This document shows positions 3,098 through 29,583 of a DNA stretch of 64,000 nucleotides, piece by piece (the first letter of the stretch is position 1; each line of letters starts with the position of its first letter). Below the pieces are notes generated by a model that searched no databases, had not been told where the DNA came from, and was given only the letters and a program-made list of their open reading frames with translations. This DNA is from Scytolyngbya sp. HA4215-MV1. GTDB lineage: Bacteria > Cyanobacteriota > Cyanobacteriia > Leptolyngbyales > Leptolyngbyaceae. The DNA lies in NCBI GenBank assembly GCA_019359045.1, contig JAHHIA010000002.1, forward strand, positions 116,401 to 180,400, written 5' to 3'. The translations under genes and the position numbers were made by a program.

Positions 3098-3667
3098 ATG
3101 CAGTTTCAAGCGAAGCAAACACGGTGGATGATGGGTGCGATCGTCAGTCTTTGTGCATTCATCGCAATTCCAGTGCATGCCGCTGAAGGAAACCAATCGG
3201 ACACTAGCGGCACCAATGTGTTTAATGACACAACTAATTCCGAGGTTAATTGCCTAAACTTCAGCACCCCCGACCAACGCAGAACCAGCGGTAATGCTTG
3301 CCAGGGCGGAGGCTCAGGTCAACGGCATGAAATGGCTGCGGCGGCCCAAACTTTGCAAACAGCAATTTCAGAACTTCTGAATAATGAGGCGATCGGGGCA
3401 GATACCAAAGGGTCTTTGCAACGAGCCAACGCCTGTTTGGGCGCATCTTTTAGCCAGTGCTCTCGTAAATTCGATCGAGAGATTCGCCGGGTCGCCAAAA
3501 GTCTGCAACAAGACATCAACACCACCAATCAAGCCTGTGCAGGAGGAGATGCGGCTGCCTGCACCCAACTCAATCGACTGGTCGGCCAAACCAATCAATT
3601 TTTGACCAGTCTGGAACGTTTCAAAACCCTTTTCACCCAATACGCTCGAACCTCACGAACCTTTTGA
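3098..3667 (+). CDS. hypothetical secreted/periplasmic Cys-containing protein
   Basis: An AGGAGG RBS lies at 3088-3093, 5 nt upstream of the ATG at 3098. The N-terminus MQFQAKQTRWMMGAIVSLCAFIAIPVHAAEG is a signal peptide. There are several Cys residues and no recognisable catalytic motif. Confidence 0.55.
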   Translation: MQFQAKQTRWMMGAIVSLCAFIAIPVHAAEGNQSDTSGTNVFNDTTNSEVNCLNFSTPDQRRTSGNACQGGGSGQRHEMAAAAQTLQTAISELLNNEAIGADTKGSLQRANACLGASFSQCSRKFDREIRRVAKSLQQDINTTNQACAGGDAAACTQLNRLVGQTNQFLTSLERFKTLFTQYARTSRTF

Positions 3668-3845
3668 AGCGCTAGGAGTTAGGAGTCAGCTGCTAGTAAA
3701 TCTTGATTAATCTCGACTCAAAACTCGTCTCAAAGGATGTTTGAAAAGTTATTGACTGGTGATGTTGAGCCCCCTCTCACACCTATTACCTAACACCAAA
3801 CACCTGTTACCTAACCCCCAATACCGGCTACCTACCCAACCCAGC

Positions 3846-5105
3846 ATGACAAACTCCATCATTCAAGTTGAAAATCTGGGCAAAAAATACATCCTCAAGC
3901 ATCAATCCCAGGAACGTTATACCTCGTTGCGAGATGTGATCAGCGATCGAGTTCAGTCCATTGGTCACAGATTTATGGGGTCGAGATCGCGCACTCTAAT
4001 CCCAAACCAGGAGGAGTTTTGGGCACTCAAGGATGTTTCGTTTAAGATTCAGCAAGGCGATCGAGTCGGCATCATTGGTCGCAATGGAGCCGGTAAATCA
4101 ACGCTACTTAAAATCCTCAGCCGCATCACCGAACCTACCCATGGCAGAATTCGCATCAAAGGAAGAGTTGCCAGTTTGCTGGAAGTTGGCACTGGGTTTC
4201 ATCCTGAACTCACTGGAAGAGAAAACATCTTTTTGAATGGTGCCATTCTTGGAATGGGTAAAGCAGAAATTAGCCGCAAGTTTGATGAAATTGTGGCATT
4301 TGCAGAGATCGAAAAGTTTCTAGATACACCCGTCAAACGCTATTCATCAGGGATGTATGTACGACTAGCATTCGCTGTTGCCGCTCACCTAGAACCTGAG
4401 ATTTTGATCGTAGATGAAGTATTAGCAGTTGGAGATTTACAGTTTCAAAAAAAGTGCTTAGGTAAGATGGAAGATGTTGGCAAAGAGGGCAGAACCGTCT
4501 TATTTGTCAGCCATAATTTGGCAACCGTCAAACAACTCTGTACTAGAGCCATCTTACTTGCAAACGGAGGTATTTTAGCGGATGGTAATCCCATTCAAAT
4601 TGCCTCCAAATATATGCAATCATTCACGACCAACTCTCTCTCTGACGCGAAGAAAACATACCATCATATCAAGGGCGATCGCAGAGCAGAAATATCAAAT
4701 ATCACAATTAATAATATCAGTCAAAATGAAGCCGTCGTCTCCATCTTTGACCAAATAGAGATTGCTATTAACTATCAACTCAATCAACCTATTCAAGAAA
4801 TAGAATTTTTTGTTTTAGTTTCTTCGTTTGATGATGGAGAAGTCCAGGCAAGCTTATTCCAAAGAGATTCCAATACCCGAGTAAAACCGACATCAAATCA
4901 AGGTCAATTAAAAATTAGTTTTATGAATCATTTTTTGCCTGGAAGATATACCATCTCTGCCGGTATTTTTGATGAACATAAAAAATTTGTGGATTGGGTG
5001 GAATATGTAGAGTCTTTTCAGGTTGAATCTGCTTTTAAGAACGGTCAAAAGTATGATCACAGATTAGGCAAAATTAGTCTTCAGGGGAACTGGCATGTTG
5101 AGTAG
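3846..5105 (+). CDS. wzt: Polysaccharide/O-antigen ABC-export ATPase Wzt/KpsT-type with a C-terminal carbohydrate-binding (Wzt_C-like) extension
   Basis: Walker A GRNGAGKSTLLKIL; ABC signature YSSGM; Walker B ILIVDEV; H-loop SHNL. About 190 residues follow the nucleotide-binding domain, as in Wzt CBM-bearing exporters. The start was chosen at ATG 3846 (MTNSIIQVENLGKKY); the ORF track extends to a GTG at 3759. Confidence 0.85.
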   Translation: MTNSIIQVENLGKKYILKHQSQERYTSLRDVISDRVQSIGHRFMGSRSRTLIPNQEEFWALKDVSFKIQQGDRVGIIGRNGAGKSTLLKILSRITEPTHGRIRIKGRVASLLEVGTGFHPELTGRENIFLNGAILGMGKAEISRKFDEIVAFAEIEKFLDTPVKRYSSGMYVRLAFAVAAHLEPEILIVDEVLAVGDLQFQKKCLGKMEDVGKEGRTVLFVSHNLATVKQLCTRAILLANGGILADGNPIQIASKYMQSFTTNSLSDAKKTYHHIKGDRRAEISNITINNISQNEAVVSIFDQIEIAINYQLNQPIQEIEFFVLVSSFDDGEVQASLFQRDSNTRVKPTSNQGQLKISFMNHFLPGRYTISAGIFDEHKKFVDWVEYVESFQVESAFKNGQKYDHRLGKISLQGNWHVE

Positions 5106-5634
5106 AAAGCTTAGAAAAATTATAGTTTCAACTAGGGTTAAATTCTTTAATAAGATCCACCAATATTTATTGGAAAGTCAACAAGAAACATTAATTCAAC
5201 AGCTCAAATTTTGTGGAGAAGACTGTCATTTTTATTTCCCATTCTACATTATTAATCCTGGTAACCTCGAAATTGGAAATGGTGTCTCGATCGGGACTTA
5301 CGTTCATATGTGGTGCCAGGGTGGTATCACCATTGGCAATCGCGTTTTAATCGCTTCCCATACAGCCATCACGTCGGTGACACATAATCACAGTAAGGCA
5401 GATATGCGCAAAGACACTATCCGACAACCTGTGATTATTGAGGATGATGTTTGGATTGGGGCACATGCAGTCATTCTTCCCGGCATCACCATTGGTAAAG
5501 GTGCGGTGATTGGAGCCAATTCAGTAGTGACTAAAGATGTTGCACCTTATTCAATTATGATTGGCAGCCCTGCCAAAGTGCATAAACAAAGAGAAATCAA
5601 AAATGATTTTTCTGCTATTAATCCGATTTTTTAA
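5095..5634 (+). CDS. Hexapeptide-repeat (LbH) O-acetyltransferase, maltose/galactoside acetyltransferase-like
   Basis: Repeated [LIV]-G-x-x-x-x hexapeptides (IGNGVSIGTYVHMW..ITIGNRVLIAS...VWIGAHAVILPGITIGKGAVIGANSVV). It overlaps the wzt stop by 11 nt. Confidence 0.8.
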   Translation: MLSRKLRKIIVSTRVKFFNKIHQYLLESQQETLIQQLKFCGEDCHFYFPFYIINPGNLEIGNGVSIGTYVHMWCQGGITIGNRVLIASHTAITSVTHNHSKADMRKDTIRQPVIIEDDVWIGAHAVILPGITIGKGAVIGANSVVTKDVAPYSIMIGSPAKVHKQREIKNDFSAINPIF

Positions 5635-5676
5635 CAGATCGTTAAAAGCGCTTAATCAAGCATCAGGGCTTTGAAC

Positions 5677-6705
5677 ATGAGTCTTTCACCGCTCCCTTTC
5701 AGTCAAAACAAATTTCTCTGGGTCGAGCCAGAGAAAGGTTTGGATAATGATAATTTAGAACAGTCTAAGTTACCTCGAATTAGTGTGATTACCCCTAGTT
5801 ATAATCAGGGACAATTTATTGAAGAAACAATCTGTTCTGTCTTAGGTCAAAATTATCCCAATTTGGAATACATCATCATTGATGGGGGTAGCACTGATAA
5901 CACTGTAGAAATTATCAAAAAATACGAACCCTGGATTACTTACTGGGTGAGTGAACCCGATCGAGGACAAACCCATGCCCTTAATAAAGGAATTGAAAAA
6001 TCTACAGGTGAAATCCTAGCATACCTCAATAGCGACGATTATTACTTGCCAGACACATTATTAACAGTTGCAGCCTATTTCCAAGCGTTTCCTAATACTG
6101 ATCTATTCCACGGCAAGTGCCGTTACGTAAATGAAAAAGGCGAAAAAGTTGGAGAACAATTTGGCAACATTCAAAAAATAGAAGAAATTCTGGATCTTTG
6201 GCACGTCTGGTGGGCGAAACGTCAATTTGTTCAACCAGAGGTGTTTTGGACAAAGCGAATCACAAATCAAATTGGATTATTCAATGAAGACTTAAATTTT
6301 GTGATGGACTATGAATACTGGAGTCGAATTCTGCGGTTCGGTGCCAAGGTAAGTAGAATCGATGCAGAATTATCATGTTTTCGATTTACCACAACTCAAA
6401 AATCAAACCAGAGCGAACTAGTCGCTGAGGAATTGCTCAATGTAGTCCGTCCTTTAATTTGGGATTACTCTCTAAATTTACCCAACAAACATCGCTTAGT
6501 ATTGCAGGGTAATTGGCTTTACCAGAGTGCCTTTTTGAAGGAGATTAAAAATTCAGTTGAAGGCAGCGATTGTAAACTTATTCGTTGGTTAAAATTGATC
6601 AAAATAATTTTGTACCATCCAAAAATTTTACTGGCTTTAGATTTTTATCAGCGCATCCATCAATTATTTTCTCCACTGCCTCAACACAGTCGAAGTGCTC
6701 TATAG
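5677..6705 (+). CDS. Family 2 glycosyltransferase (GT-A fold)
   Basis: ISVITPSYNQGQFIEETICSVLGQNYPNLEYIIIDGGSTDNT ... LNSDDYY (DXD-like). The ORF track starts at a TTG at 5671; the ATG is at 5677. Confidence 0.85.
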   Translation: MSLSPLPFSQNKFLWVEPEKGLDNDNLEQSKLPRISVITPSYNQGQFIEETICSVLGQNYPNLEYIIIDGGSTDNTVEIIKKYEPWITYWVSEPDRGQTHALNKGIEKSTGEILAYLNSDDYYLPDTLLTVAAYFQAFPNTDLFHGKCRYVNEKGEKVGEQFGNIQKIEEILDLWHVWWAKRQFVQPEVFWTKRITNQIGLFNEDLNFVMDYEYWSRILRFGAKVSRIDAELSCFRFTTTQKSNQSELVAEELLNVVRPLIWDYSLNLPNKHRLVLQGNWLYQSAFLKEIKNSVEGSDCKLIRWLKLIKIILYHPKILLALDFYQRIHQLFSPLPQHSRSAL

Positions 6706-6711
6706 AAAAAT

Positions 6712-7380
6712 ATGTTATTGCGTTCCCACTTTTCCTTCGGTCACCTCTATCTTAAACTCAATCAATTGAGTGAAGCTTTGAGCGTGAAAGCTGTTAAATT
6801 GAGTAGACAGTTTGTTCGTCCTCCGTTTCCCCAAAATACAGACAATACCATTAATTTACACTTGGGTTGTGGTTCTATCCAGCATCCGAAATTTATTAAT
6901 ATTGATGCTCGACCGGCTTCCCATATTCATTATGTCCGCCCGATCGATAATCTGTCCCCGTTTAAAGACAATAGTGTTGATCTAATTTATGCTTGTCACT
7001 GCTTAGAGCACTTTTCTCACACTCAAACTCATCGGGTTTTAGCTGAATGGTATCGCGTTCTTAAAAAAGATGGAATTTTGCGTATATCAGTCCCTGATTT
7101 TGATTTATTGCTGAACATTTATGCCGATTTGAAATACGATCTTGAACCCGTCATGGGCTTAATGATGGGCGGTCAAAATTATGAATTTAATTTTCACAAA
7201 GCTGTTTTTAACGCAAAAAATTTGACGAATGCTTTACTCAAAGTTGGTTTTAAAGAGGTTCAAATCTGGCAACCGGGAAAGTGCGAAATGACTACATTTG
7301 ATGATTGGTCAGGTCGCTATTTGGGGCGCAAATATCCAGTGAGCTTGAATCTAGAAGCAATGAAAGTCGGTAATAAATGA
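6712..7380 (+). CDS. Class I SAM-dependent methyltransferase (Methyltransf_11/12-like)
   Basis: Motif I-like LHLGCGS; motif post-I LKKDGILRISVPD; size about 220 aa. It sits inside the glycan cluster next to wzt. Confidence 0.7.
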   Translation: MLLRSHFSFGHLYLKLNQLSEALSVKAVKLSRQFVRPPFPQNTDNTINLHLGCGSIQHPKFINIDARPASHIHYVRPIDNLSPFKDNSVDLIYACHCLEHFSHTQTHRVLAEWYRVLKKDGILRISVPDFDLLLNIYADLKYDLEPVMGLMMGGQNYEFNFHKAVFNAKNLTNALLKVGFKEVQIWQPGKCEMTTFDDWSGRYLGRKYPVSLNLEAMKVGNK

Positions 7381-7424
7381 GGGCGCATTTTGTTGCTTAT
7401 TTTATTTTATGCTGATTAGCAGTG

Positions 7425-8387
7425 ATGCGTATTAAACTCACGGTGGGCTATCCTAATTGGGGGGGGATACGTCAGACTCCTCGTTCACAGGGAATTTGGG
7501 AAGATTGCAAATTCCTGATTAATCAGTCTTGTGAAGAATGTGATGCCTGGGTTGTCTTACAAAGTACTAAAGGGTTGTTAACGTTAGAAAGTACACATTG
7601 TCCACCCGAAAATTTGGTACTAGTGACTCGAGAACCTCCTGATATGATGACTTGGCAATCCGGCTATCTCAAGCAATTTAACGTAGTTGTTAGCTGCCAT
7701 ACGAATTTGAAGCATTCCAATGTTTTACTAACTCAACATGGGCAAACTTGGCATTTGGCAAACTATTCTTACGATCAGCTTATTGAAGTGCAGCCTGATC
7801 AAAAAATAGATCGAATTTCTATTATTTGTTCCAATAAAAACTATACTTTAGGTCATCGTACTCGATTACGTTTATTAGAAATACTCAAAGGTCACTTTAA
7901 GGAATTGGATATTTTTGGATATGGGTTTAATCCCATCCTAGATAAATGGGAGGGAATCTATCCCTATAAATATCATCTTGTATTGGAAAATGGTAGTTTT
8001 CCCCATTATTGGACTGAGAAATTAACGGATGCATATTTAGGATTTTCTTTGCCAATTTATTGTGGTTGCCCCAACTTAACAGATTACTTTTCTGCTCAGT
8101 CATTTATTCAGATTAATTCGCAAGATATTGATCGGGTAATTGATACCCTTGAACAAGCGATCTCTAATCATCAATATGAGCGATCGCTCCCCGCAGTGAT
8201 GGAGGCGCGGAACCTGGTTCTCAATCACTACAATCTTTTCCCCATGTTGGCTGAGCTATGCCGCCAACTGCCTGGAACTACAAAACAAAAAGTCACGCTT
8301 CGCCCCGATTTTGAATTCAAGCCATCTTTCGTATCGAGAATCAGCAAGTTGTTTAGCCCAACTTGCAAAGGAGATAATTTTTTCTGA
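7425..8387 (+). CDS. GT10-family (alpha-1,3-fucosyltransferase-like) glycosyltransferase
   Basis: The characteristic FucT motif YKYHLVLENGSFPHYWTEKLTDAYLGFSLPIYCG matches the GT10 consensus [YF]x[FL]xFENSxxxxYxTEK. Confidence 0.65.
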   Translation: MRIKLTVGYPNWGGIRQTPRSQGIWEDCKFLINQSCEECDAWVVLQSTKGLLTLESTHCPPENLVLVTREPPDMMTWQSGYLKQFNVVVSCHTNLKHSNVLLTQHGQTWHLANYSYDQLIEVQPDQKIDRISIICSNKNYTLGHRTRLRLLEILKGHFKELDIFGYGFNPILDKWEGIYPYKYHLVLENGSFPHYWTEKLTDAYLGFSLPIYCGCPNLTDYFSAQSFIQINSQDIDRVIDTLEQAISNHQYERSLPAVMEARNLVLNHYNLFPMLAELCRQLPGTTKQKVTLRPDFEFKPSFVSRISKLFSPTCKGDNFF

Positions 8388-9394
8388 TGAAAATAGCAAT
8401 TTTCGGCTATTACAATGCGCTCAATGCTGGGGATGATCGAATTCAATATTGTATTACTCGACTATTGCAAGGTCATCAAGTAATCTTTTTACCCCATTAT
8501 TTGCCACCTCCTAAAGATTATCTCCAATCATTTGATTGGATTCTTATTGGTGGAGGCGGACTTGTTTTTGAGCAGGTTGGTATTTGGAACAATACAGCAA
8601 AATGGATTCAAGACTGTAAAGCGAAGATCGGAGTCTTGGGTTTAGGCGTCAATCATATTTCCCAAAAACTCTGTTCAGAAGTGCTGACTCTTATTGAAAA
8701 AGCTGATTTTTTCTACGTTAGGGATCATACGAGTAAAGCATTGTTGAATCAACATTCTAAAATAGAAGTTTATCCGGATCTAACCTGGTGTTTTCCATTT
8801 CAGTCGGAACAGCAGCCTGATAGGATCTGCCAAGGAATTGCGCTTAATCTATTGCCTTGTCACTGGCGATCTTTTGATATCGACGCATGGGTAAGAGTTC
8901 TAACGAATGCTCAAATTCATCCTTTTCCATTGCACTTTGGCATAAACAGAGATTTTGATCTACTGCATACCTATTTTGGCGATCGTACACCTCAAGAATT
9001 CTCTCTTAAACCATTAATGAACAGTCAATTATTAATTGCCTGTCGGTTTCACGCGATTGTCTTTGCAATGCAACTGGGCAAACCATTCATTGCTATCAAC
9101 TATGACGATAAAGTGCGACGGTTACTTGCGGAGGCAGACCTATTAGAATGCTGCCTACAAACCACTGAACATCACCAGCTCTTGGAAAAAATTCAATTTG
9201 TGTTGGAACATCAAACTCAATTGCAGCAGAAGATTGCTGTCTTTAATCAGTTACAGCACGCACGATCTCAAATTTTATTGAGATTAGTACAAGACCATTT
9301 GCTACCCCAGCCATCGCCAACCAAGCAAGATCCGTTGTCCACTTTAAGAAAGATAGCTAAAATAACGACCAAAAAATTAGTGGGGAGAGTTTAG
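8387..9394 (+). CDS. Polysaccharide pyruvyl transferase family protein (CsaB/WcaK-like)
   Basis: N-terminus MKIAIFGYYNALNAGDDRIQ...ILIGGGGL is typical of PS_pyruv_trans. The start codon overlaps the upstream stop (TGATG). An AAGGAG motif lies 14 nt upstream. Confidence 0.65.
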   Translation: MKIAIFGYYNALNAGDDRIQYCITRLLQGHQVIFLPHYLPPPKDYLQSFDWILIGGGGLVFEQVGIWNNTAKWIQDCKAKIGVLGLGVNHISQKLCSEVLTLIEKADFFYVRDHTSKALLNQHSKIEVYPDLTWCFPFQSEQQPDRICQGIALNLLPCHWRSFDIDAWVRVLTNAQIHPFPLHFGINRDFDLLHTYFGDRTPQEFSLKPLMNSQLLIACRFHAIVFAMQLGKPFIAINYDDKVRRLLAEADLLECCLQTTEHHQLLEKIQFVLEHQTQLQQKIAVFNQLQHARSQILLRLVQDHLLPQPSPTKQDPLSTLRKIAKITTKKLVGRV

Positions 9395-9399
9395 TAACC

Positions 9400-10302
9400 A
9401 TGTCTATTGGCTCTCTAGCGCTTAAAATTCAGCAAAAATATCAATATGGTCTAAAAACGACTTACTATCGAGATACGGTTAGAAATCGTATTTTGGATAC
9501 ACGTCCTTTTTTAAATACACAAGATTTTACCTGTGAAATTCATGTTCTTACTTATGAAAAAGACTGGCTGAATCTCATTTGGGCGCTAAAAAGTTTTTAT
9601 CACTATTCTCAGCGTTGCTATGCGCTCTGTATCCATGATGACGGAACCCTCACAGCCGAACAGTGTGCAATCTTACAACATCATTTTCCGAAGGCTCGCA
9701 TTCTTAAACGCAGCGATGCCGATCGCCATGTTATGCCGACCCTGCAATCCTATCCCCGGTGTTTAGAGTTTCGCAAAACTAACCATCTAGCTCCTAAAGT
9801 ATTTGACTTTGTTGAATACTTAGAAAGCGATCGCATGTTTTTGCTTGACAGCGATGTGCTCTTTTTCACAGAACCAACTGAGCTATTGAAACGCTTGGAA
9901 GATCCAGGTTATCAACTCAATACAGTCAACGGTGACGTCGCAAGTGCCTATACGGTTAATCCAGTCTTGATTCAAGAGACGCTCGGATTTACTGTAATTG
10001 AGCGGTTTAATTCCGGATTGGGACTGATTCATAAAGCCTCCCTGAATCTGGATTGGATTGAAGAGTTTTTGGGATTACCGGACATCATTGGGCATTTCTG
10101 GCGGATCGAACAAACCCTCTATGCCCTATGCAGTTCCCGATTTGGGGTAGAACTTTTGCCACCCGAATACGATGTGTCGCTCTCCAGAGGGGTGAACCGT
10201 TTACCTTGCCGTCATTACGTGGGACAAATCCGTCATTTAATGTATTGCGAAGGGATACAGCATCTGGTTCGCAATCGTTTTTTGCAAGAGCTAAGTCAAT
10301 GA
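9400..10302 (+). CDS. hypothetical protein; possible nucleotide-sugar transferase with a DXD-like motif
   Basis: Clean ATG with a GGGGAGAG RBS-like motif upstream. A possible DXD is MFLLDSDVLFF. There are no transmembrane helices and no recognised family. It lies within the glycan cluster. Confidence 0.45.
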   Translation: MSIGSLALKIQQKYQYGLKTTYYRDTVRNRILDTRPFLNTQDFTCEIHVLTYEKDWLNLIWALKSFYHYSQRCYALCIHDDGTLTAEQCAILQHHFPKARILKRSDADRHVMPTLQSYPRCLEFRKTNHLAPKVFDFVEYLESDRMFLLDSDVLFFTEPTELLKRLEDPGYQLNTVNGDVASAYTVNPVLIQETLGFTVIERFNSGLGLIHKASLNLDWIEEFLGLPDIIGHFWRIEQTLYALCSSRFGVELLPPEYDVSLSRGVNRLPCRHYVGQIRHLMYCEGIQHLVRNRFLQELSQ

Positions 10303-11396: not shown

Positions 11397-11464
11397 TCAA
11401 AAAATATCTTTTACGTTAATTTCAACGAATAAGACGTTTCTAGTGCAAATAGGAGACAGCTTTC

Positions 11465-12442: not shown

Positions 12443-12449
12443 TGTCAGT

Positions 12450-13592: not shown

Positions 13593-13607
13593 GGGGGCTG
13601 CGCCCCC
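13593..13607 (+). terminator. GC-rich hairpin GGGGGCTGCGCCCCC, a possible terminator downstream of the GT2 gene
   Basis: Perfect 6-bp GC stem; a T-run (GCTTTTACT) follows about 10 nt later. It lies 175 nt after the stop of the 13418 gene. Weak. Confidence 0.25.
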
Positions 13608-16470: not shown

Positions 16471-16473
16471 TTC

Positions 16474-17475: not shown

Positions 17476-18013
17476 AGGTTTAAGGAGTCGCTGGCGTAAC
17501 GGCTACTATCGAATGCTGGGAGTCAAACTGCACGGCTATATCTGGATGCGTGAGATTGAGATTCCTCGCAACTTTTCCGATATTGAGATCGAGCGTTCTT
17601 GTGCCCTGGATCGAGGAGTAACGCTACTGTGCAGTGGTGAACCATCACCCCATCCTAAAATTCACATTGGTGCCCACACTTATATCAATCGAAACACCTT
17701 TTTGGATGCTATCTTATCCCTCACGATCGGTGAACATTGTGCCATTGGACCTGGTTGCTACATCACGGATCATGATCATGGACAAGACTGCACTCTGCCA
17801 CCGCTACAGCAACCAATGATTGCTAAACCCACCCAAATTGGCAATCAAGTTTGGATCGGAGCGAATGTCACCATTCTTAAGGGGGTGACGATCGGCCCCA
17901 ATACTATTGTTGGAGCAGGTAGCGTCGTCAACAAAAATTTACCCGAAAAAAGTATTGCAGTAGGCGTTCCTGCAAAGGTCATTCGATATCGTTCTGTACT
18001 GGAAGTAGGATAG
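17459..18013 (+). CDS. Hexapeptide-repeat (LbH) acetyltransferase, second copy
   Basis: IGEHCAIGPGCYITDHDH...VWIGANVTILKGVTIGPNTIVGAGSVV. It overlaps the upstream gene by 17 nt. Confidence 0.8.
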   Translation: MHPIIEGLRSRWRNGYYRMLGVKLHGYIWMREIEIPRNFSDIEIERSCALDRGVTLLCSGEPSPHPKIHIGAHTYINRNTFLDAILSLTIGEHCAIGPGCYITDHDHGQDCTLPPLQQPMIAKPTQIGNQVWIGANVTILKGVTIGPNTIVGAGSVVNKNLPEKSIAVGVPAKVIRYRSVLEVG

Positions 18014-18023
18014 GACAAAAGTA

Positions 18024-19127
18024 TTGAGTGTGAATCAATCGACAACTCAAGCTCAACCAGACGATAAAGAACACCGTCGATTTCGATTTATTGATGGATT
18101 GCGGGGACTTGCTGCGCTCTTAGTGACTGGCTTTCATTTTTACAATGCGGGACCGCTGCATCAAGCCTTATCTACCCTATTTCCCTTACCCATTGGATTG
18201 ATATTGGAACAAGGTTGGTTAGGGGTCGAAGTCTTTTTTGTCATTAGTGGTTTTGTGATTGCCTACAGCTTAAGAGAGACAAAAATTACACTCAATTTTT
18301 TGAGAAGTTTTACGCTACGTCGCTTCTTACGGCTTAGTCCTCCCTATTGGGGCAGTATCCTATTAGTCATTTTGATCAATTATTTCTCCAACTGGTTCCT
18401 CACCGATCGCGCAGTTCCCCTACCAACTGTCGGTGTAACCCTGGCACACCTCTTTTATCTCCAGAATATTTTGGGCATGGGGGATCTCGTGCCAGTTTTT
18501 TGGACGCTCTGTCTGGAAATTCAGTTCTATCTTGTGTTTGTGATTCTTTTAGCAATCAGTCAGAACCTCATCCCCCAAAAGAGCGCTTCATTCAATATGC
18601 TGACTGATTTCTGTTTTGTGGGGTTAGCAATAGGGTCAATTTTTCTCACGATCGAGGCTGGTAGCTCAATCCGATCTTTCTTTTATCCTGATTGGTATAC
18701 CTTCTTTATGGGAGTCTTGGTGTGCTGGACACTGCAAAAAAAGACTCTGAGCATATGGCTTTGGCTATATGTTTCAATTATTACAATATCACTCATTATT
18801 CACTGGGATATTCGAATCTTTGCAACTCTCATCACTGGTTTGAGTATTTATTTATTTGTTCAATACGAGCAATTACAGAACTGGCTCAATAGTCGTTGGC
18901 AACAGTATGTTGGAAAAATTTCTTATAGCTTGTATTTAATCCATCTTCTCACAGGCATGCGTATTATTAATCTCGGTTATCGAGTCACCGGAGATTCTCC
19001 AATTCTGGCCTTGGTTTGGTTTATTTTAGCTATTGCAATGAGTATTTTATCCGCTCATTTATTTTATACATGGGTTGAGAAACCGAGTTTAATCCTGAGT
19101 AGAAAAATCAAATTTGAGAATAGTTAA
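18024..19127 (+). CDS. Acyltransferase family 3 (OafA/WecH-like) integral membrane O-acyltransferase
   Basis: N-terminal R-x(n)-IDGLRGLAALLVTGFHF motif; about 10 predicted hydrophobic helices. The ORF starts at a TTG (a GTG alternative at 18028). Confidence 0.75.
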   Translation: MSVNQSTTQAQPDDKEHRRFRFIDGLRGLAALLVTGFHFYNAGPLHQALSTLFPLPIGLILEQGWLGVEVFFVISGFVIAYSLRETKITLNFLRSFTLRRFLRLSPPYWGSILLVILINYFSNWFLTDRAVPLPTVGVTLAHLFYLQNILGMGDLVPVFWTLCLEIQFYLVFVILLAISQNLIPQKSASFNMLTDFCFVGLAIGSIFLTIEAGSSIRSFFYPDWYTFFMGVLVCWTLQKKTLSIWLWLYVSIITISLIIHWDIRIFATLITGLSIYLFVQYEQLQNWLNSRWQQYVGKISYSLYLIHLLTGMRIINLGYRVTGDSPILALVWFILAIAMSILSAHLFYTWVEKPSLILSRKIKFENS

Positions 19128-19192
19128 AAAGGTACAGACTGCGATGTTGGTTACTCAGAGACTCCGAAATTGGTAGTACATAGGCAAAAAGT

Positions 19193-20098
19193 ATGAGTAA
19201 TTTAGGAAAACCATCTTGCGAGATAACCGTAGGAATTCCTACCTTTCAACGTCCCGAAAAACTTGTTCAGACGCTAAAGAAAATTCTTGACTGCAATCCA
19301 CAACCCTGCGAAATCATCATTCACATTGATGGTCAAGATAGCGTTACTGAGAAAATCCTAAGAGAGAATTTTCAAGATCTTAAAATTATTCAGAGTGATG
19401 TCAGAGTAGGTCCTGGAGGGGGAAGAAATAGAATTATACGGGCAGCTCAGAATCCTATTATTGCTAGTTTTGACGATGATTCTTACCCGATCGATTCGGA
19501 TTATTTTTCTCGACTTAGTATTCTGTTTGAACGCTTTTCTCAAGCAGCCATTATTGGAGCAAAAGTCTATGAAATTGATCAGTCTCTTAACCCTGACCAG
19601 CAGGATATTTTATGGACATCTAGTTTTATTGGGTGTGGCTGTGCCTATCGCCGAGAAGCATTTACTCAGACTCAAGGGTATGTTCCGCTCCCTTTAGCCT
19701 ATGGAATGGAAGAGGTTGACTTATCTCTACAACTCCACCACCTCAATTGGAGAATTCTACAAACTTCGTGGTTGAGAGTATGTCATAACACGAAGTTGGA
19801 ACATCGTAATCAACCCACCATTACGGCTGCATCGATTACCAACCAGGCTCTACTCACTTACTTAAGATATCCTTTTATCTTTTGGTGGATCGGTTTTGGT
19901 CAGTTTGTTAGTCGAATTGTCTGGTTAGCTTTGAATGGGAAATTTGCTGGAATTTTAGAAGGAATTACTGATGTTCCTCGATTAATCAGAAAAAATCGAC
20001 ACTATCGTCAAGTAATTTCTTCTAAGTCTTTGCTTTCACATTTATATCTACGTCGTAACTCAGTCATTGCAGAGATCAATCCAGATCGGGTTGATTAG
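19193..20098 (+). CDS. Family 2 glycosyltransferase
   Basis: ITVGIPTFQRPEKLVQTLKKIL...IIIHIDGQDS...ASFDDDSY (DXD). Confidence 0.75.
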   Translation: MSNLGKPSCEITVGIPTFQRPEKLVQTLKKILDCNPQPCEIIIHIDGQDSVTEKILRENFQDLKIIQSDVRVGPGGGRNRIIRAAQNPIIASFDDDSYPIDSDYFSRLSILFERFSQAAIIGAKVYEIDQSLNPDQQDILWTSSFIGCGCAYRREAFTQTQGYVPLPLAYGMEEVDLSLQLHHLNWRILQTSWLRVCHNTKLEHRNQPTITAASITNQALLTYLRYPFIFWWIGFGQFVSRIVWLALNGKFAGILEGITDVPRLIRKNRHYRQVISSKSLLSHLYLRRNSVIAEINPDRVD

Positions 20099-20133
20099 GT
20101 GGTTATCAGAAAACGCCAAGCTGCTAGAAATTC

Positions 20134-21372
20134 GTGATAGCTCAAATTTCATCCTGGATTTGTTGTCAATTAGGTGCGAGAGAGCACTATGCCATTCCCC
20201 GATCGCTGGCAAGATCGGGACATCTGGCAATGCTGATTATTGATGCCTGGGTGCCGCCCCAGTCTGCTTGGCGGCGATTGCCACTGTCGTCTCTCAAATC
20301 TCTGCAAGAACGGTTTCATCCAGAACTGGCTCAATTTCATTCGGTTCATGCGTTTACCAATGCCCTGGTGCAGTTTGAAATCACCCAGCGACTCTTTAAA
20401 ACTTCAGAATGGTCTCGCATTCTCGATCGCAATCGCTGGTTTCAACAGCAAGCGGTACAAAAGCTTTGCCAACAGACGATGCAATGCATATCTCGCCCCA
20501 CACTCTTTGCCTATAGTTATGCTGCCCTAGATTTGTTTCGCTACGCCAAAACTCAGGGTTGGCAAACCGTATTAGGGCAGATTGATCCGGGTCCGATCGA
20601 GGAAAAGCTAGTCTTGGCGGAATGCACCCGTTACGCACCCGCAGGAATCGACTGGCAACCTGCACCCGCCCAATATTGGGCGGACTGGCAAGTGGAATGT
20701 GCTCTGGCAGACCGGATTGTGGTGAATTCTGATTGGTCGCGTCAGGCATTGCAACAAGTGGGGATTGCCGCAGCCAAAATTGAAGTGATGCCGCTAGCCT
20801 ATGAGCAATCTGAAGCGTCTAAAAGTTGGGTACGCACTTATCCCCCCCAGTTTTCCCACGATCGTCCCTTGCGGGTTTTGTTTTTGGGACAGATCATTTT
20901 ACGAAAAGGAATTGCGGCGGTGTTAGAAGCCGCTAATTTTCTCAAAGATGAACCAATCGAGTTTTATCTCGTGGGTGCTCCGGGCATCCCTCGACCTGAG
21001 CCAGCCCAACCCCATGTGCATTGGCTGGGCGTTGTCTCCCGCAGTGAAACGGCTCAATATTACCAGCGATCGGATGTTTTTTTGTTCCCAACCCTATCCG
21101 ATGGTTTCGGATTAACCCAACTAGAAGCTCAGGCTTGGCAGCTACCTGTGATTTCGTCCAGATTTTGCGGGGCTGTGGTGAAAGATCAGGTAAATGGATG
21201 GATACTGCCGGAGGTGACTGGAGATGCGATCGCGCAGATTTTGCGAATTTGTTTGCATCATCCCAGGCTTTTGGAGCAATTTTCGCACCACTCATGGGTC
21301 ACTCAAGAATTTAGCTTGACCCAACTCTCAGCACAATTAGTCCAGCAAGAACGTGATCCCCCCAACCTTTAA
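20134..21372 (+). CDS. GT4-family (GT-B) glycosyltransferase
   Basis: VLFLGQIILRKGIAAVLEAA...SDVFLFPTLSDGFGLTQLEAQAWQLPVISS is the GT-B C-terminal domain with the E-x7-E-like region. GTG start; an alternative ATG is at 20230. Confidence 0.7.
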   Translation: MIAQISSWICCQLGAREHYAIPRSLARSGHLAMLIIDAWVPPQSAWRRLPLSSLKSLQERFHPELAQFHSVHAFTNALVQFEITQRLFKTSEWSRILDRNRWFQQQAVQKLCQQTMQCISRPTLFAYSYAALDLFRYAKTQGWQTVLGQIDPGPIEEKLVLAECTRYAPAGIDWQPAPAQYWADWQVECALADRIVVNSDWSRQALQQVGIAAAKIEVMPLAYEQSEASKSWVRTYPPQFSHDRPLRVLFLGQIILRKGIAAVLEAANFLKDEPIEFYLVGAPGIPRPEPAQPHVHWLGVVSRSETAQYYQRSDVFLFPTLSDGFGLTQLEAQAWQLPVISSRFCGAVVKDQVNGWILPEVTGDAIAQILRICLHHPRLLEQFSHHSWVTQEFSLTQLSAQLVQQERDPPNL

Positions 21373-21380
21373 CCTGGCTC

Positions 21381-22808
21381 ATGGCTTATGAAACCGGTTT
21401 GACCATAGCGTTCCCTTTTAATTACGTCCTGGCAGGAATCATTCTGGGAGTTTTGAGTTTAGAAGCTTTCCTCCGCAGAAATCGTGCCTGGGGAATTCCA
21501 TCCCTGATTATCTATGCCACCACTGCATTATGGTATTTTGTTGAAATTTTTTACACTCCGGAAGAATATACAAGTTTCCCAAATTCAATCATTGAAGATA
21601 GCTATACCGAAGTCATTATTTTTCTAATTAGTTATCGATTGATGATTTCGTATTGTACCAAACGGTTAGTTAATCGCCGTCTGAACATGGCGACCTATAT
21701 TAGCCAATTTACTTTCAATCCAAATCGCTTTCTGGTTTACATCGCCAGCGTCTGGTTGATATTACTATTATTTGGCCTTAGCCGCGTGAACTGGAATTTG
21801 GTTGAAGCTCTCTTCCCCCTGACAGGTAGAGCCGGAATCAATATGTGGAGCCGTGCTGGGGCTGGGGCTGCTGGGGCAGGGGGATTTATCATTTCTTCTG
21901 CCAATTACATTTACACCCTCACCTGTGCTTTTTTTGGCATCTTATTGTTCTTCACACGCAACCAGATTAAAATTCTCAATCTTGCCTTGATTCTGGCTTC
22001 TTGGCCCTTTTATATGTTGAGCGGGACCCGGAATCAGTTTCTGGCTGTAGCTATGCCTGCATTTTTTACCTACCTCTTGCTCTCTAAACAAAAGTGGTGG
22101 ATGAAAATCCTGGTTTCACTCTTGCTGTTTGGGATGCTGAACTATCTATTTACAATCGTAATTGCCTACCGAGATGTGGGATTTCAAAGCGTTGTTTCTA
22201 ACCTGATGCAAGGGCAAGAGATCAACAAACCAGAAACGAAACATCTGGGGCTGAACATGGCAGTCGAGCTTTTCTATATCAATCAGTTTTATGATCAAGG
22301 TCAGGTTCAGTTGCAGTATGGCTTTGATTACCTGGCAGATTTTTTGAATTTCATACCACGAGCAATTTGGCCAGAAAAGCCGATTTTGGGATTGCAATAT
22401 AATCTGCTACGGGGATTTGGCAGTAGTCGCGGTGACATTGGTGTGTTTGCCACGATCGCGTCTGGTTTTATTGGACGGGGCGTCCTCAACTTCGGACCCT
22501 GGCTCGGACCGATCGCACCCGCTTTGCTACTGGCGTTATGGAGCGCATTGCTCAGTCGGTTTTGGAGTCAGCGATACTCTGTATTACGACTCTGTTTGTT
22601 CCTCATGGGTTTGGGCATTACCCCTAACTTAGGGCGAGATATTACCCTATTGGTGATTTGGCCCATGATTTTTGGCTATGGGTTAGTCCGCTTTCTGGAA
22701 CATCTCGATCGCAAAAAGCAGCGACAGATGTCTCGTTTCATTCCTGATTCCGGTAGCGCTGCTGCCATCCGGCAGAACTTTTATCGTGATCTGGAGAACG
22801 ACTCATGA
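21381..22808 (+). CDS. Polytopic membrane protein, Wzy/O-antigen polymerase or O-antigen-ligase-like
   Basis: About 10-12 hydrophobic helices over 475 aa with a larger loop near the C-terminal third. It sits between glycosyltransferase genes with no other recognisable motifs. The family assignment is an inference from architecture and context. Confidence 0.5.
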   Translation: MAYETGLTIAFPFNYVLAGIILGVLSLEAFLRRNRAWGIPSLIIYATTALWYFVEIFYTPEEYTSFPNSIIEDSYTEVIIFLISYRLMISYCTKRLVNRRLNMATYISQFTFNPNRFLVYIASVWLILLLFGLSRVNWNLVEALFPLTGRAGINMWSRAGAGAAGAGGFIISSANYIYTLTCAFFGILLFFTRNQIKILNLALILASWPFYMLSGTRNQFLAVAMPAFFTYLLLSKQKWWMKILVSLLLFGMLNYLFTIVIAYRDVGFQSVVSNLMQGQEINKPETKHLGLNMAVELFYINQFYDQGQVQLQYGFDYLADFLNFIPRAIWPEKPILGLQYNLLRGFGSSRGDIGVFATIASGFIGRGVLNFGPWLGPIAPALLLALWSALLSRFWSQRYSVLRLCLFLMGLGITPNLGRDITLLVIWPMIFGYGLVRFLEHLDRKKQRQMSRFIPDSGSAAAIRQNFYRDLENDS

Positions 22809-23941
22809 CACGAATTGTTGTTCTGTTTACGAACTATGGTCCCTATCACCTTGCCAGAGTCCGGAGTTTAGAGCAACACTGTCGTCTTCTCAATTGGGAA
22901 GTCTTGGGTGTGGAATTGTCGCGACAGGAACAAACTTATGCATGGCAGGTCGATCGTCGTGATTTACCTAGCCATCTGATTTCCGTCATTCCAGACTCAC
23001 CGTTGGAGCAAGTGCCCCTGGTGCATTTGTTATCTCAATTAATCACTGTGCTCACTCGGCTACAGCCTGATATTGTTGCGATCGCAGGCTATGCCCATCC
23101 AGCCATGTTAACGGCACTGGGCTGGAGTTTATGGCATCGCAAACCAGCGATTCTGATGTCCGAAACCACTGCTTGGGACAATCCTCGTCATTGGCTGCAG
23201 GAAATGCTAAAAAGTTGGATTGTCAAACAATACCAATCCGCCCTGGTGGGTGGCAGCCCTCAGGCTCGCTACTTAATCGAATTAGGGATGCCAGCTACAA
23301 CCATCTGTTTCGGGTATGACGTTGTTGATAATCAAGTCTTTCACCCCGATCGTTGCCATCATTTTCCCCGCCCGATCTCGCGTCCCTACTTTTTGTCTGT
23401 GAGTCGCTTCGTTCCCAAAAAAAACTTGCCGTTCTTACTCGCTGCCTATGCCCAGTATCGTCAGGTAGTTGGTGATGTGGCTTGGGATTTAGTGCTTTCC
23501 GGGGATGGACCTTTACGGGCTCAACTGGAGCAACAGATTGCAGAACTCAACCTAGAGCCTTGGGTTCACCTACCAGGGTTTCTCCAACAAACTGAATTAC
23601 TGCCCTACTTTGCCCATGCGGGTTGTTTTGTTCATGCCAGCACTCAGGAGCAATGGGGATTGGTGGTGAATGAGGCGATGGCAGCGGGATTGCCCGTCTT
23701 AGTGTCTAACCGTTGTGGTTGCTTTGAAGATCTGGTCTTAGAAGGCGTTACCGGCTTTGGCTTTGACCCGGCAAATGAACTTCAATTAACTGATTTGATG
23801 ACCAAAATCACGTTGGCAGCAGGGCAACTTGAGACAATGCGGCAAGCGACACTGGCGCATATTCAAAAGTTCTCACCGGACTGTTTTGCGATCGGGCTGA
23901 TTCAGGCAATTCAATACGCCCACACTCTCAAACGCGGATGA
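22805..23941 (+). CDS. GT4-family (GT-B) glycosyltransferase
   Basis: FVHASTQEQWGLVVNEAMAAGLPVLVSNRCG (EX7E region). ATGA overlap with the upstream gene. Confidence 0.8.
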   Translation: MTRIVVLFTNYGPYHLARVRSLEQHCRLLNWEVLGVELSRQEQTYAWQVDRRDLPSHLISVIPDSPLEQVPLVHLLSQLITVLTRLQPDIVAIAGYAHPAMLTALGWSLWHRKPAILMSETTAWDNPRHWLQEMLKSWIVKQYQSALVGGSPQARYLIELGMPATTICFGYDVVDNQVFHPDRCHHFPRPISRPYFLSVSRFVPKKNLPFLLAAYAQYRQVVGDVAWDLVLSGDGPLRAQLEQQIAELNLEPWVHLPGFLQQTELLPYFAHAGCFVHASTQEQWGLVVNEAMAAGLPVLVSNRCGCFEDLVLEGVTGFGFDPANELQLTDLMTKITLAAGQLETMRQATLAHIQKFSPDCFAIGLIQAIQYAHTLKRG

Positions 23942-29550: not shown

Positions 29551-29583
29551 CAGATGCTTTCAACTTCTAGTGAATTCCCTACA

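What the first reader, a model, noticed from the sequence alone, without database searches (positions are those of the whole stretch)
3098..23941. About 20-kb single-strand cluster for a multiply decorated (sulfo-, fucosyl-, pyruvyl-, acetyl-, methyl-) glycan with Wzt-type export
About twenty consecutive + strand genes are present, many with overlapping start/stop codons. They encode a Wzt ATPase with a C-terminal carbohydrate-binding module, 3 GT2, 3 GT4, 2 GT10-like fucosyltransferases, a pyruvyl transferase, 2 LbH acetyltransferases, an acyltransferase_3, a SAM methyltransferase, a PAPS-type sulfotransferase and a Wzy/ligase-like polytopic membrane protein. The combination of sulfotransferase, fucosyltransferases and pyruvyl transferase resembles the logic of cyanobacterial sulfated exopolysaccharide loci, but the gene content here is distinct and includes an embedded RTX protein. 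This is the largest coherent system in the window and could specify an undescribed sulfated/fucosylated surface polymer or a protein-glycosylation pathway.
Basis: partly seen in the sequence, partly recalled or inferred. Interest (0 to 1): 0.7.

Follow-up and report, generated by a model that had tools for sequence, protein, structure and literature searches.

The report
Cyanobacterial decorated surface-glycan gene cluster
This is a real 20-kb gene cluster in a soil cyanobacterium (Scytolyngbya) for building a heavily decorated, probably sulfated and fucosylated, cell-surface sugar polymer; clusters of this general kind are already known in cyanobacteria, but this one lacks the usual membrane half of its exporter and carries a conserved calcium-binding protein gene in its middle.

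Summary
Corrections: there are four GT2 genes, not three. One more conserved GT8-like glycosyltransferase has no Pfam family. The first gene (3098-3667) encodes a secreted protein, not a glycan enzyme. The window comes from the MAG Scytolyngbya sp. HA4215-MV1.

"Wzt-type export" is only half encoded. No wzm permease lies anywhere in the 64 kb, although 67 of 74 related wzt loci have one within 3 kb. The wzm-less layout recurs in two related genomes, and all 20 genes are under purifying selection (dN/dS 0.07-0.20), so the cluster is not decaying.

The cluster sits on a framework shared by many cyanobacteria: wzt ... GT2-unk300-GT4 ... GT4-(Wzy-like)-GT4, with variable decorating genes between. 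The polytopic protein belongs to the SEDS/WaaL/Wzy fold superfamily; whether it acts as polymerase or ligase is unresolved. The RTX gene is conserved in place (GT2-RTX-GT2-LbH) in four related lineages.

Maeda et al. 2021 already reported cyanobacterial sulfotransferases inside ABC-type polysaccharide clusters. This is therefore a new member of a known kind, of moderate interest.

The parts
3846..5105 (+). wzt: ABC-transporter ATPase with a C-terminal carbohydrate-binding domain (CBD)
   Evidence: ABC_tran 86 bits and Wzt_C 46.1 bits, cutoff 30.4. The best solved relative is full-length Aquifex WzmWzt (8dku/7k2t), 231 bits, aligned over residues 53-399 including the CBD. Walker A (GRNGAGKST), YSSGM, Walker B (ILIVDE) and the H-loop can be read in the translation. 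dN/dS is 0.10 against L096.
5095..5634 (+). LbH1: hexapeptide-repeat O-acetyltransferase overlapping wzt by 11 nt; candidate enzyme for the chain-end cap
   Evidence: Hexapep 54 bits. WcaF/WbbJ-type, below threshold. Found immediately downstream of wzt in all 4 loci that share this CBD type, against 6 of 73 other loci.
5671..6705 (+). GT2a glycosyltransferase (framework gene)
   Evidence: Glycos_transf_2 102 bits. 61-66% identical orthologues in L002, L008, L014, L096, L097, L098 and L099.
6712..7380 (+). Class I SAM methyltransferase (O-methylation; possible terminator)
   Evidence: Methyltransf_11 44 bits. Orthologues in L002, L096 and L099.
7425..8387 (+). GT10a: GT10-like (fucosyl)transferase
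   Evidence: Glyco_transf_10 30.4 bits, cutoff 23.9. The motif LENGSFPHYWTEK is present.
8387..9394 (+). Polysaccharide pyruvyl transferase
   Evidence: PS_pyruv_trans 79.5 bits. Not CsaB: TIGR03609 scores 61 bits against a cutoff of 213.
9400..10302 (+). unk300: conserved cyanobacterial GT8-like (GT-A fold) glycosyltransferase with no Pfam family (framework gene)
10299..11396 (+). GT4a glycosyltransferase (framework gene; ATGA overlap with unk300)
   Evidence: Glyco_trans_1_4 and Glycos_transf_1. Start position read. Follows unk300 in L002, L008, L014, L096, L097, L098 and L099.
11465..12442 (+). GT10b: second GT10-like (fucosyl)transferase; variably present
   Evidence: Glyco_transf_10 61 bits. 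Aligned with H. pylori FucT through the YVTEK motif. Window 11359-12462 has no counterpart in L096 or L002. A 54% homologue is present in L099.
12450..13418 (+). GT2b glycosyltransferase
   Evidence: Glycos_transf_2 104 bits. Part of the conserved block GT2b-RTX-GT2c-LbH2.
13946..15163 (+). RTX beta-roll Ca2+-binding protein with no catalytic domain, embedded in the cluster
   Evidence: HemolysinCabind 88 bits, 5 stretches; 8 nonapeptide repeats. Same position in L096 (81%), L099 (72%) and L098 (53%), with a 33% analogue in Calothrix NIES-2098. dN/dS 0.07.
15628..16470 (+). PAPS-dependent carbohydrate-type sulfotransferase
   Evidence: Sulfotransfer_1 74 bits. The 5'-PSB (GAMKCGTSSL) and 3'-PB (RDPIQRIVSHY) motifs align with 3rnl and with heparan-sulfate 3-OST-1.
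16474..17475 (+). GT2c glycosyltransferase
   Evidence: Glycos_transf_2 58.5 bits.
17459..18013 (+). LbH2: WbbJ-like O-acetyltransferase
   Evidence: Hexapep 63 bits. WbbJ model 112 bits, below threshold.
18024..19127 (+). Acyltransferase_3: membrane O-acyltransferase
   Evidence: Acyl_transf_3 66 bits.
19193..20098 (+). GT2d glycosyltransferase (the fourth GT2)
   Evidence: Glycos_transf_2 55 bits.
20230..21372 (+). GT4b glycosyltransferase; first gene of the conserved triad GT4b-Wzy-like-GT4c
   Evidence: Glyco_trans_1_4 75 bits. 50-74% orthologues directly upstream of the polytopic gene in L082, L084, L086, L088, L093 and L094.
21381..22808 (+). Wzy-like polytopic membrane protein (SEDS/WaaL/Wzy fold superfamily); polymerase or ligase role unresolved
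22805..23941 (+). GT4c glycosyltransferase; last gene of the cluster
   Evidence: Glycos_transf_1 102 bits. 53-75% orthologues directly after the polytopic gene in seven cyanobacterial loci.
3098..3667 (+). sec189: small signal-peptide protein inside the reported coordinates; probably not a glycan gene
   Evidence: No family. Signal-peptide-like N-terminus. 81% orthologue between the SLH porin and wzt in L096. Higher G+C than the cluster.

Best explanation
This is the strain-variable surface-glycan locus of Scytolyngbya sp. HA4215-MV1. The product would be an O-antigen-like or capsular/sheath polysaccharide. The locus follows the ABC-transporter-dependent design and sits on a framework shared by many cyanobacteria.

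Proposed mechanism:
1. An unlinked priming enzyme starts the chain on undecaprenyl phosphate at the cytoplasmic face.
2. Up to ten cytoplasmic glycosyltransferases (4 GT2, 3 GT4, 2 GT10-like, 1 GT8-like) build a heteroglycan that probably contains fucose.
3. The chain is decorated with O-acetyl/acyl groups (LbH1, LbH2, AT3), O-methyl (MT), a pyruvate ketal (Pyr) and sulfate (PAPS sulfotransferase).
4. A modification at the non-reducing end is recognised by the Wzt carbohydrate-binding domain. LbH1, which is co-inherited with this CBD type, is the leading candidate for making it; MT and Pyr are alternatives.
5. Wzt then drives export together with a Wzm permease that must be encoded elsewhere in the genome.
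6. On the periplasmic face, the conserved polytopic SEDS/WaaL/Wzy-superfamily protein, always flanked by GT4b and GT4c, transfers or joins the lipid-linked glycan to its acceptor.
7. The RTX beta-roll protein is a conserved, probably secreted, Ca2+-binding partner of the anionic glycan.

Shown: gene content, motifs, synteny and purifying selection. Inferred: every biochemical step, the identity of the cap, the unlinked wzm, and the roles of the polytopic and RTX proteins.
For: - Domain assignments are at or above the curated cutoffs.
- Wzt aligns along its full length, CBD included, with Aquifex Wzt. CBD-bearing Wzt proteins recognise a chemically modified chain terminus (PMC9445017; WbdD precedent PMC3482155).
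- The PAPS and GT10 motifs are intact.
- The whole array is collinear with contig Ga0484864_000241 from window 47 to 24627.
- All 20 genes have dN/dS of 0.07-0.20.
- The framework genes recur across cyanobacteria. wzt..GT2a-unk300-GT4a is seen in Anabaena lutea, Picosynechococcus PCC 11901, Elainellales and Oculatellaceae. GT4b-polytopic-GT4c is seen in Calothrix, Scytonematopsis, Nodularia and Pseudanabaena; Microcoleus L092 keeps only polytopic-GT4c.
- wzt and the polytopic gene lie in one same-strand cluster in Elainellales, about 15 kb apart, and in a Bryobacterales MAG.
- The CBD type and LbH1 are co-inherited: 4 of 4 against 6 of 73 loci, including two non-cyanobacterial phyla.
- A terminal pyruvate on an ABC-pathway O-antigen has a precedent (PMC10629545).
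- Maeda et al. 2021 place cyanobacterial sulfotransferases in ABC-type clusters and suggest these make cell-bound sulfated polysaccharide.
Against: - No wzm is present in 64 kb, whereas 67 of 74 related wzt loci have one within 3 kb. A working transporter is therefore assumed, not seen.
- ABC-dependent pathways do not need a Wzy-type enzyme.
- The polytopic family has no invariant histidine. To my knowledge, a histidine is essential in characterised WaaL ligases.
- A 38% homologue in Phenylobacterium sits beside a Wzx flippase, which points to a polymerase role.
- The window contains no priming transferase, GDP-fucose genes or PAPS genes.
- Long spacers around the RTX gene split the array into at least three likely transcription units.
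- L099 has the RTX block but no polytopic triad.
- The CBD-LbH1 association rests on four loci that are not fully independent.
Confidence: 0.55

Rival explanations
1. Two pathways lie side by side and make one composite ('dual-chain') glycan or two separate glycans. Module A (wzt to GT2b) would make an ABC-exported backbone. Module B (sulfotransferase to GT4c) would make Wzy-polymerised sulfated units that are joined to the backbone outside the cytoplasm, as in the rhamnan plus pellicle/teichoic decorations of lactococci and enterococci.
For: - The array is split by two long spacers around the RTX gene.
- Module A occurs without the 10 kb of module B in Anabaena lutea L002.
- L099 lacks the polytopic triad.
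- The polytopic protein's best family match is the repeat-unit polymerase model TIGR04370. It has many invariant arginines and no invariant histidine.
- A Phenylobacterium homologue sits beside a Wzx flippase.
- There are precedents for ABC plus Wzy-like dual assembly (PMC10821137 and PMC7188991).
Against: - No Wzx flippase and no second priming enzyme were found among the window ORFs scanned.
- The polytopic protein is 49-79% identical across cyanobacterial orders while the neighbouring transferases change. That is unusual for a repeat-unit-specific polymerase.
- Modules A and B stay contiguous in L096, L098 and Elainellales.
Confidence: 0.2
2. This is a protein O-glycosylation system. The lipid-linked glycan is exported by Wzm/Wzt and transferred en bloc by the WaaL/PglL-like polytopic enzyme onto the co-encoded RTX surface protein. 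This would resemble S-layer glycoprotein glycan (slg) clusters of Gram-positive bacteria.
For: - The RTX gene keeps its position (GT2b-RTX-GT2c-LbH2) in four related lineages and is among the most conserved genes: 81% identity, dN/dS 0.07.
- In L098 and L099 it lies 7 and 88 nt from the next transferase gene.
- slg clusters combine Wzm/Wzt, a methyl cap and the oligosaccharyltransferase WsaB (PMC2943079).
- To my knowledge, known cyanobacterial S-layer and motility proteins are RTX glycoproteins.
Against: - Five of seven cyanobacterial loci with the polytopic triad have no RTX gene.
- L099 has the RTX gene but no polytopic gene.
- Only 3 of 43 family members give even a weak Wzy_C hit.
- There is no evidence that this RTX protein is glycosylated or secreted.
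Confidence: 0.1
3. The cluster makes a released sulfated exopolysaccharide like synechan, by a Wzx/Wzy-type route, and wzt is incidental.
For: A sulfotransferase plus many transferases plus a Wzy-like protein. An OPX (Poly_export) gene starts at the left edge of the window. Synechan precedent (PMC8205485).
Against: - No Wzx, PCP or priming transferase was found.
- wzt heads the cluster in every relative and is under purifying selection.
- According to Maeda et al., free EPS is not known to be made by the ABC route.
- The OPX gene lies in the higher-G+C flank and is absent from the other relatives.
Confidence: 0.08
4. The cluster is a non-functional remnant, because the exporter permease has been lost.
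For: wzm is absent from 64 kb although it normally lies beside wzt.
Against: - All ORFs are intact.
- dN/dS is 0.07-0.20 for every gene against a relative whose synonymous sites are nearly saturated.
- The same wzm-less layout occurs in L096 and L098.
Confidence: 0.05

Closest known systems
ABC-transporter-dependent O-polysaccharide clusters with a CBD-bearing Wzt (E. coli O9a wzm-wzt-wbdD-wbdABC; Aquifex aeolicus WzmWzt)
   Same: A Wzt ATPase with a C-terminal carbohydrate-binding domain heads a run of cytoplasmic glycosyltransferases. Candidate chain-end modifying enzymes lie directly downstream of wzt, as wbdD does in O9a.
   Different: - No adjacent wzm.
- No WbdD-like coiled-coil terminator.
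- Far more decorating enzymes (sulfo, pyruvyl, three acyl, methyl).
- A Wzy/WaaL-superfamily gene and an RTX gene lie inside the cluster.
Synechan (xss) sulfated EPS cluster of Synechocystis PCC 6803, and the sulfotransferase-containing ABC-type clusters surveyed by Maeda et al. 2021 (PMC8205485)
   Same: A cyanobacterial glycan cluster with a PF00685 sulfotransferase among many glycosyltransferases. It is 'partial' as a cluster, as Maeda et al. describe for most such loci.
   Different: xss is a Wzx/Wzy/PCP system with a priming transferase and regulators. This cluster has wzt and none of those. Neither the product nor a mutant is known.
Dual-chain rhamnose-rich cell-wall polysaccharide loci of lactococci and enterococci (PMC10821137, PMC7188991)
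   Same: One locus combines an ABC-exported chain with a Wzy-like polytopic enzyme and variable decoration genes.
   Different: Those are Gram-positive and peptidoglycan-anchored, and they encode flippases. No flippase is seen here.
S-layer glycan (slg) clusters of Geobacillus and Paenibacillus (PMC2943079)
   Same: Wzm/Wzt export, a capped chain, a WaaL-like transferase, and a surface-protein gene linked to glycan genes.
   Different: The target there is a classical S-layer protein. Here the linked protein is an RTX beta-roll protein and there is no evidence of glycosylation.

Membership tests
ABC-transporter-dependent glycan pathway with CBD-Wzt | Wzt nucleotide-binding domain with intact ATPase motifs | tested here: met
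   ABC_tran 86 bits. 231 bits to Aquifex Wzt 8dku. Motifs read.
ABC-transporter-dependent glycan pathway with CBD-Wzt | C-terminal carbohydrate-binding domain (Wzt_C) | tested here: met
   PF14524 46.1 bits, cutoff 30.4. The alignment to 8dku extends to residue 399.
ABC-transporter-dependent glycan pathway with CBD-Wzt | Wzm (ABC-2) permease partner, normally adjacent | tested here: not met
   tblastn of a cyanobacterial Wzm against the whole window gave nothing below E = 2.8. 67 of 74 related loci have wzm within 3 kb. The rest of the genome could not be searched.
ABC-transporter-dependent glycan pathway with CBD-Wzt | Dedicated chain-terminating or capping enzyme | tested here: inconclusive
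   LbH1, MT and Pyr are candidates. Only co-inheritance of LbH1 with this CBD type was shown.
ABC-transporter-dependent glycan pathway with CBD-Wzt | Priming phosphoglycosyltransferase (WecA/WbaP type) | tested here: not met
   No Bac_transf or Glycos_transf_4 domain in any ORF scanned. It may be unlinked, as wecA is in E. coli.
Wzx/Wzy-dependent pathway (e.g. synechan xss) | Wzx flippase | tested here: not met
   No Polysacc_synt or MATE domain in the window ORFs scanned.
Wzx/Wzy-dependent pathway (e.g. synechan xss) | Wzy repeat-unit polymerase | tested here: inconclusive
   TIGR04370 36.1 bits, below the cutoff of 40. The fold is shared with both SEDS polymerases and WaaL.
Wzx/Wzy-dependent pathway (e.g. 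synechan xss) | PCP (Wzc) and OPX (Wza) | tested here: inconclusive
   No PCP. An SLH+Poly_export gene begins at window 141..1 (- strand), inferred from 47 codons matching the L096 gene.
O-antigen ligase / Wzy_C (PF04932, WaaL) | Match to the Pfam model | tested here: not met
   No hit for the window protein. Only 3 of 43 homologues hit weakly, best E = 0.005.
O-antigen ligase / Wzy_C (PF04932, WaaL) | WaaL-like fold | tested here: met
   [not shown]
O-antigen ligase / Wzy_C (PF04932, WaaL) | Conserved periplasmic-loop histidine (from my own knowledge of WaaL) | tested here: not met
   No invariant or nearly invariant histidine among the 43 homologues; eight invariant arginines.
GT10 alpha-1,3/4-fucosyltransferases | PF00852 above cutoff and the ENS..YxTEK nucleotide-binding motif | tested here: met
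   30.4 and 61 bits, cutoff 23.9. Motifs seen. Only the C-terminal domain matches.
GT10 alpha-1,3/4-fucosyltransferases | Use of GDP-fucose as donor | not testable with these tools
   There are no gmd/fcl genes in the window. An enzyme assay or glycan composition analysis is needed.
PAPS-dependent sulfotransferases (PF00685) | 5'-PSB and 3'-PB motifs | tested here: met
   74 bits. KCGTSSL and RDPIQRIVS align with 3-OST-1 and 3rnl.
CsaB (pyruvylation of the SLH-ligand cell-wall polymer) | TIGR03609 equivalog score | tested here: not met
   61 bits against a cutoff of 213. It is a generic PS_pyruv_trans, so the neighbouring SLH porin is probably a coincidence.
S-layer / protein O-glycosylation cluster | A glycosylated target protein and an oligosaccharyltransferase | not testable with these tools
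   Only the conserved linkage of the RTX gene was shown.

The most novel reading that the evidence does not exclude
A clade of filamentous cyanobacteria (Scytolyngbya, Oculatellaceae and relatives) uses a hybrid route. A capped, sulfated/pyruvylated fucoglycan is exported by a CBD-Wzt whose permease is unlinked. A Pfam-less family of SEDS/WaaL-like enzymes then transfers it en bloc onto the co-encoded RTX beta-roll protein. This would be a Gram-negative, cyanobacterial counterpart of S-layer glycoprotein glycan synthesis. The same polytopic family could also be the poorly defined cyanobacterial glycan ligase.
Probability: 0.1. Interest if true: 0.7.

Novelty: new member of a known kind. Interest (0 to 1): 0.35.

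Why it matters
Sulfated, pyruvylated and fucose-rich surface polymers give cyanobacterial sheaths and crusts their metal-binding, water-holding and biotechnological properties. Yet only one sulfated-polysaccharide pathway (synechan, Wzx/Wzy type) has been worked out genetically.

This locus is a complete-looking example of the other, ABC-type class, from a culturable terrestrial strain.

The comparison also yields three testable leads that apply across cyanobacteria:
1. A highly conserved GT8-like transferase that has no family assignment.
2. A conserved GT4-polytopic-GT4 triad that may hold the poorly defined cyanobacterial ligase or polymerase.
3. A CBD type that travels with an acetyltransferase, which hints at an acetyl-dependent export cap.

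None of these overturns current models.

Tried and rejected
- **Profile of 43 polytopic homologues against PDB sequences:** no meaningful hit.
- **Metagenome scan** with the single polytopic protein returned only 4 loci.
- **Rfam** on 1-30000: no RNA family.
- **Promoter/terminator scan** of the RTX flanks: uninformative, with one weak terminator-like site at 13602.
- **Island borders:** no tRNA, IS element or repeat.
- **NCBIfam:** no equivalog-level name for any gene. In particular none matches the hormogonium polysaccharide (Hps) models or CsaB. Both were therefore rejected.
- **SLH porin and pyruvyl transferase as a functional pair:** considered and rejected, because the CsaB score is too low and relatives outside the clade lack the porin.
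- **476-aa protein at 31286-32716:** checked as a possible missing membrane component. Its translation reads as a coiled-coil protein with no membrane-protein character.
- **Simkovsky et al. 2012** (predicted S. elongatus WaaL) could not be read. Whether that protein belongs to this polytopic family is therefore unknown.
- **unk300 structure model** was poor (pLDDT 57). The GT8 assignment is only moderately supported.

Full report
**1. What is in the sequence**

The ORF listing and Pfam scans confirm an uninterrupted run of + strand genes from 3098 to 23941. In order:
- a 189-aa signal-peptide protein
- Wzt (ABC_tran plus Wzt_C)
- an LbH acetyltransferase
- GT2
- a SAM methyltransferase
- a GT10-like protein
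- a PS_pyruv_trans protein
- a 300-aa protein with no family (unk300)
- GT4
- a second GT10-like protein
- GT2
- an RTX protein
- a Sulfotransfer_1 protein
- GT2
- a second LbH acetyltransferase
- Acyl_transf_3
- GT2
- GT4
- a 475-aa polytopic protein with no Pfam family
- GT4

There are four GT2 genes, not three.

Five gene pairs overlap and most gaps are under 70 nt. However, 527-nt and 464-nt spacers flank the RTX gene. The 97-aa ORF in the second spacer has no counterpart in the closest relative.

The cluster has lower G+C (0.38-0.47) than its flanks (0.51-0.54).

No wzm, wzx, priming transferase, PCP, GDP-fucose gene or PAPS gene turned up among the ORFs scanned in the 64 kb. A tblastn for wzm over the whole window was also negative.

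**2. Checks on the key assignments**

- *Wzt.* Its best solved relative is the full-length Aquifex WzmWzt transporter: 8dku/7k2t, 231 bits, aligned through the carbohydrate-binding domain. The ATPase motifs are intact.
- *Sulfotransferase.* It aligns with a bacterial sulfotransferase (3rnl) and with heparan-sulfate 3-O-sulfotransferases. Both PAPS-binding motifs are conserved.
- *GT10-like proteins.* Both carry the ENxxxxxYxTEK motif. GT10b aligns with H. pylori FucT across it.
- *Pyruvyl transferase.* It is generic and is not CsaB: 61 bits against a cutoff of 213.
- *LbH proteins.* Both are of the WcaF/WbbJ O-acetyltransferase type. No gene reaches an NCBIfam equivalog score, and none matches the Hps models.

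**3. Source and relatives**

The window is from the MAG Scytolyngbya sp. HA4215-MV1, a terrestrial culture metagenome (PMC8354539).

The closest relative is contig Ga0484864_000241 (L096/L082). It is collinear with window 47-24627 at 70-79% nucleotide identity. The one difference is GT10b (window 11359-12462), which is absent there.

That relative has the same SLH porin, the same small secreted protein, and a wzt with no wzm.

dN/dS between the two genomes is 0.07-0.20 for all 20 genes, wzt, the RTX gene and the polytopic gene included. Synonymous sites are nearly saturated, so these values are approximate. Still, pN is far below pS throughout.

**4. The missing permease**

Of 74 related wzt loci with enough upstream sequence, 67 have wzm within 3 kb and three more have it within 5 kb. 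The window has none. This includes the syntenic Anabaena lutea locus, where wzt to GT2b is 49-72% identical at the protein level.

A third related genome, Oculatellaceae bins.114 (L098), also has a non-wzm gene directly upstream of wzt.

The wzm-less arrangement is therefore a feature of this lineage, not an assembly artefact or decay. The permease must be unlinked. That could not be checked.

**5. A shared framework with variable content**

- GT2a-unk300-GT4a follows wzt in Anabaena lutea, Picosynechococcus PCC 11901, Elainellales and Oculatellaceae.
- GT4b-polytopic-GT4c closes large transferase clusters in Calothrix, Scytonematopsis, Nodularia and Pseudanabaena. The Microcoleus locus L092 keeps polytopic-GT4c but a different GT4 upstream. 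The three triad proteins are 49-62% identical to the window's across these loci, while the genes upstream differ completely.
- In an Elainellales MAG, wzt and the polytopic gene lie 15 kb apart in one same-strand cluster that also has two sulfotransferases and a pyruvyl transferase.

To my knowledge, such conservation is unusual for a repeat-unit-specific Wzy. It favours a structure-independent step, either ligation or a conserved backbone.

Against a ligase role, the family has no invariant histidine, and a Phenylobacterium homologue sits beside a Wzx flippase. The role stays open.

**6. Cap recognition**

CBD-bearing Wzt proteins recognise a modified chain terminus (PMC9445017; WbdD precedent PMC3482155).

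Only 4 of 77 wzt loci share this CBD type: two cyanobacteria, a Nibricoccus and a Chitinophagales MAG. All four have an LbH1 homologue immediately downstream of wzt, against 6 of 73 other loci. By the hypergeometric distribution this is about 1.6e-4, but the loci are not fully independent.

This makes an acetyl-dependent cap the leading guess. The methyltransferase and the pyruvyl transferase are alternatives; a terminal pyruvate has a precedent in PMC10629545.

**7. The RTX gene**

It is not a stray insertion. The block GT2b-RTX-GT2c-LbH2 is conserved in L096 (RTX 81% identical), L099 (72%) and L098 (53%). In L098 and L099 the RTX gene lies 7 and 88 nt from the next transferase gene. Calothrix NIES-2098 has a 33% analogue in a similar position.

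However, five of seven cyanobacterial loci centred on the polytopic gene have no RTX gene, and L099 has the RTX gene without the polytopic triad.

The protein is almost entirely beta-roll repeats with no catalytic domain. I infer a structural, Ca2+-binding role. A glycoprotein role is possible but untested.

**8. Comparison with what is known, and verdict**

Maeda et al. [quoted passage not shown] They suggested that ABC-type clusters make cell-bound sulfated polysaccharide.

This locus fits that description. It works like a CBD-Wzt O-polysaccharide pathway, but it fails the adjacency test for wzm and carries extra parts.

I class it as a new member of a known kind. Its interest is moderate, because the product is uncharacterised and the comparison yields three testable leads: the GT8-like framework gene, the polytopic triad, and the CBD-acetyltransferase pairing.

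Noticed in passing
window 1-141 (- strand): The first 47 codons of a gene that runs off the left edge match the N-terminus of an SLH + Poly_export (Wza/KpsD-like OPX) protein of the closest relative, L096. So an outer-membrane polysaccharide export gene lies divergently 3.7 kb upstream of wzt.
   Followed up: partly
window 1009-3081 (+) and 3098-3667 (+): An SLH-domain outer-membrane porin-like protein (690 aa) is followed by a small signal-peptide protein of unknown function. The pair is conserved in L096 (the small protein at 81% identity, dN/dS 0.08). It is absent upstream of wzt in Anabaena lutea.
   Followed up: partly
[not shown]
   Followed up: partly
window 11359-12462: The second GT10-like gene is the only segment of the cluster missing from the otherwise collinear relative L096, and also from Anabaena lutea. 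A 54% homologue occupies the same slot in L099. It is a variably present decoration gene.
   Followed up: yes
window 24021-24611 (- strand): A signal-peptide protein of unknown function converges on the end of the cluster. A 66% orthologue is in the same place in L082. No family was found.
   Followed up: partly
window 13946-15163: The search of the 5.8-billion-protein collection listed no 100% match to the RTX protein itself; the best hit was 81%. Yet the same 405-aa gene is called on Logan contig L001.
   Followed up: no
window 29554-30326 (+): An XisH gene (Pfam 189 bits) with an overlapping 112-aa ORF that may be XisI; the second ORF was not tested.
   Followed up: no
window 48496-50259 (+): A 360-aa protein with a C-terminal bacterial EndoU nuclease domain (93 bits), preceded by a 189-aa protein with no family. 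This may be a toxin module.
   Followed up: no
window 53282-60113 (- strand): Four consecutive genes: two TPR-CHAT proteins (951 and 520 aa), a 364-aa protein with only a weak sub-threshold TPR_12 hit, and a TPR-only protein (426 aa).
   Followed up: no
window 36088-38631 (+): An 847-aa fusion of DUF1400, an alpha/beta-hydrolase (PETase/PAF-AH-like) domain and a family-3 solute-binding domain.
   Followed up: no
window 31286-32716 (- strand): A 476-aa, glutamine/glutamate-rich coiled-coil protein without a Pfam hit. It was checked only to exclude a membrane glycan enzyme.
   Followed up: partly
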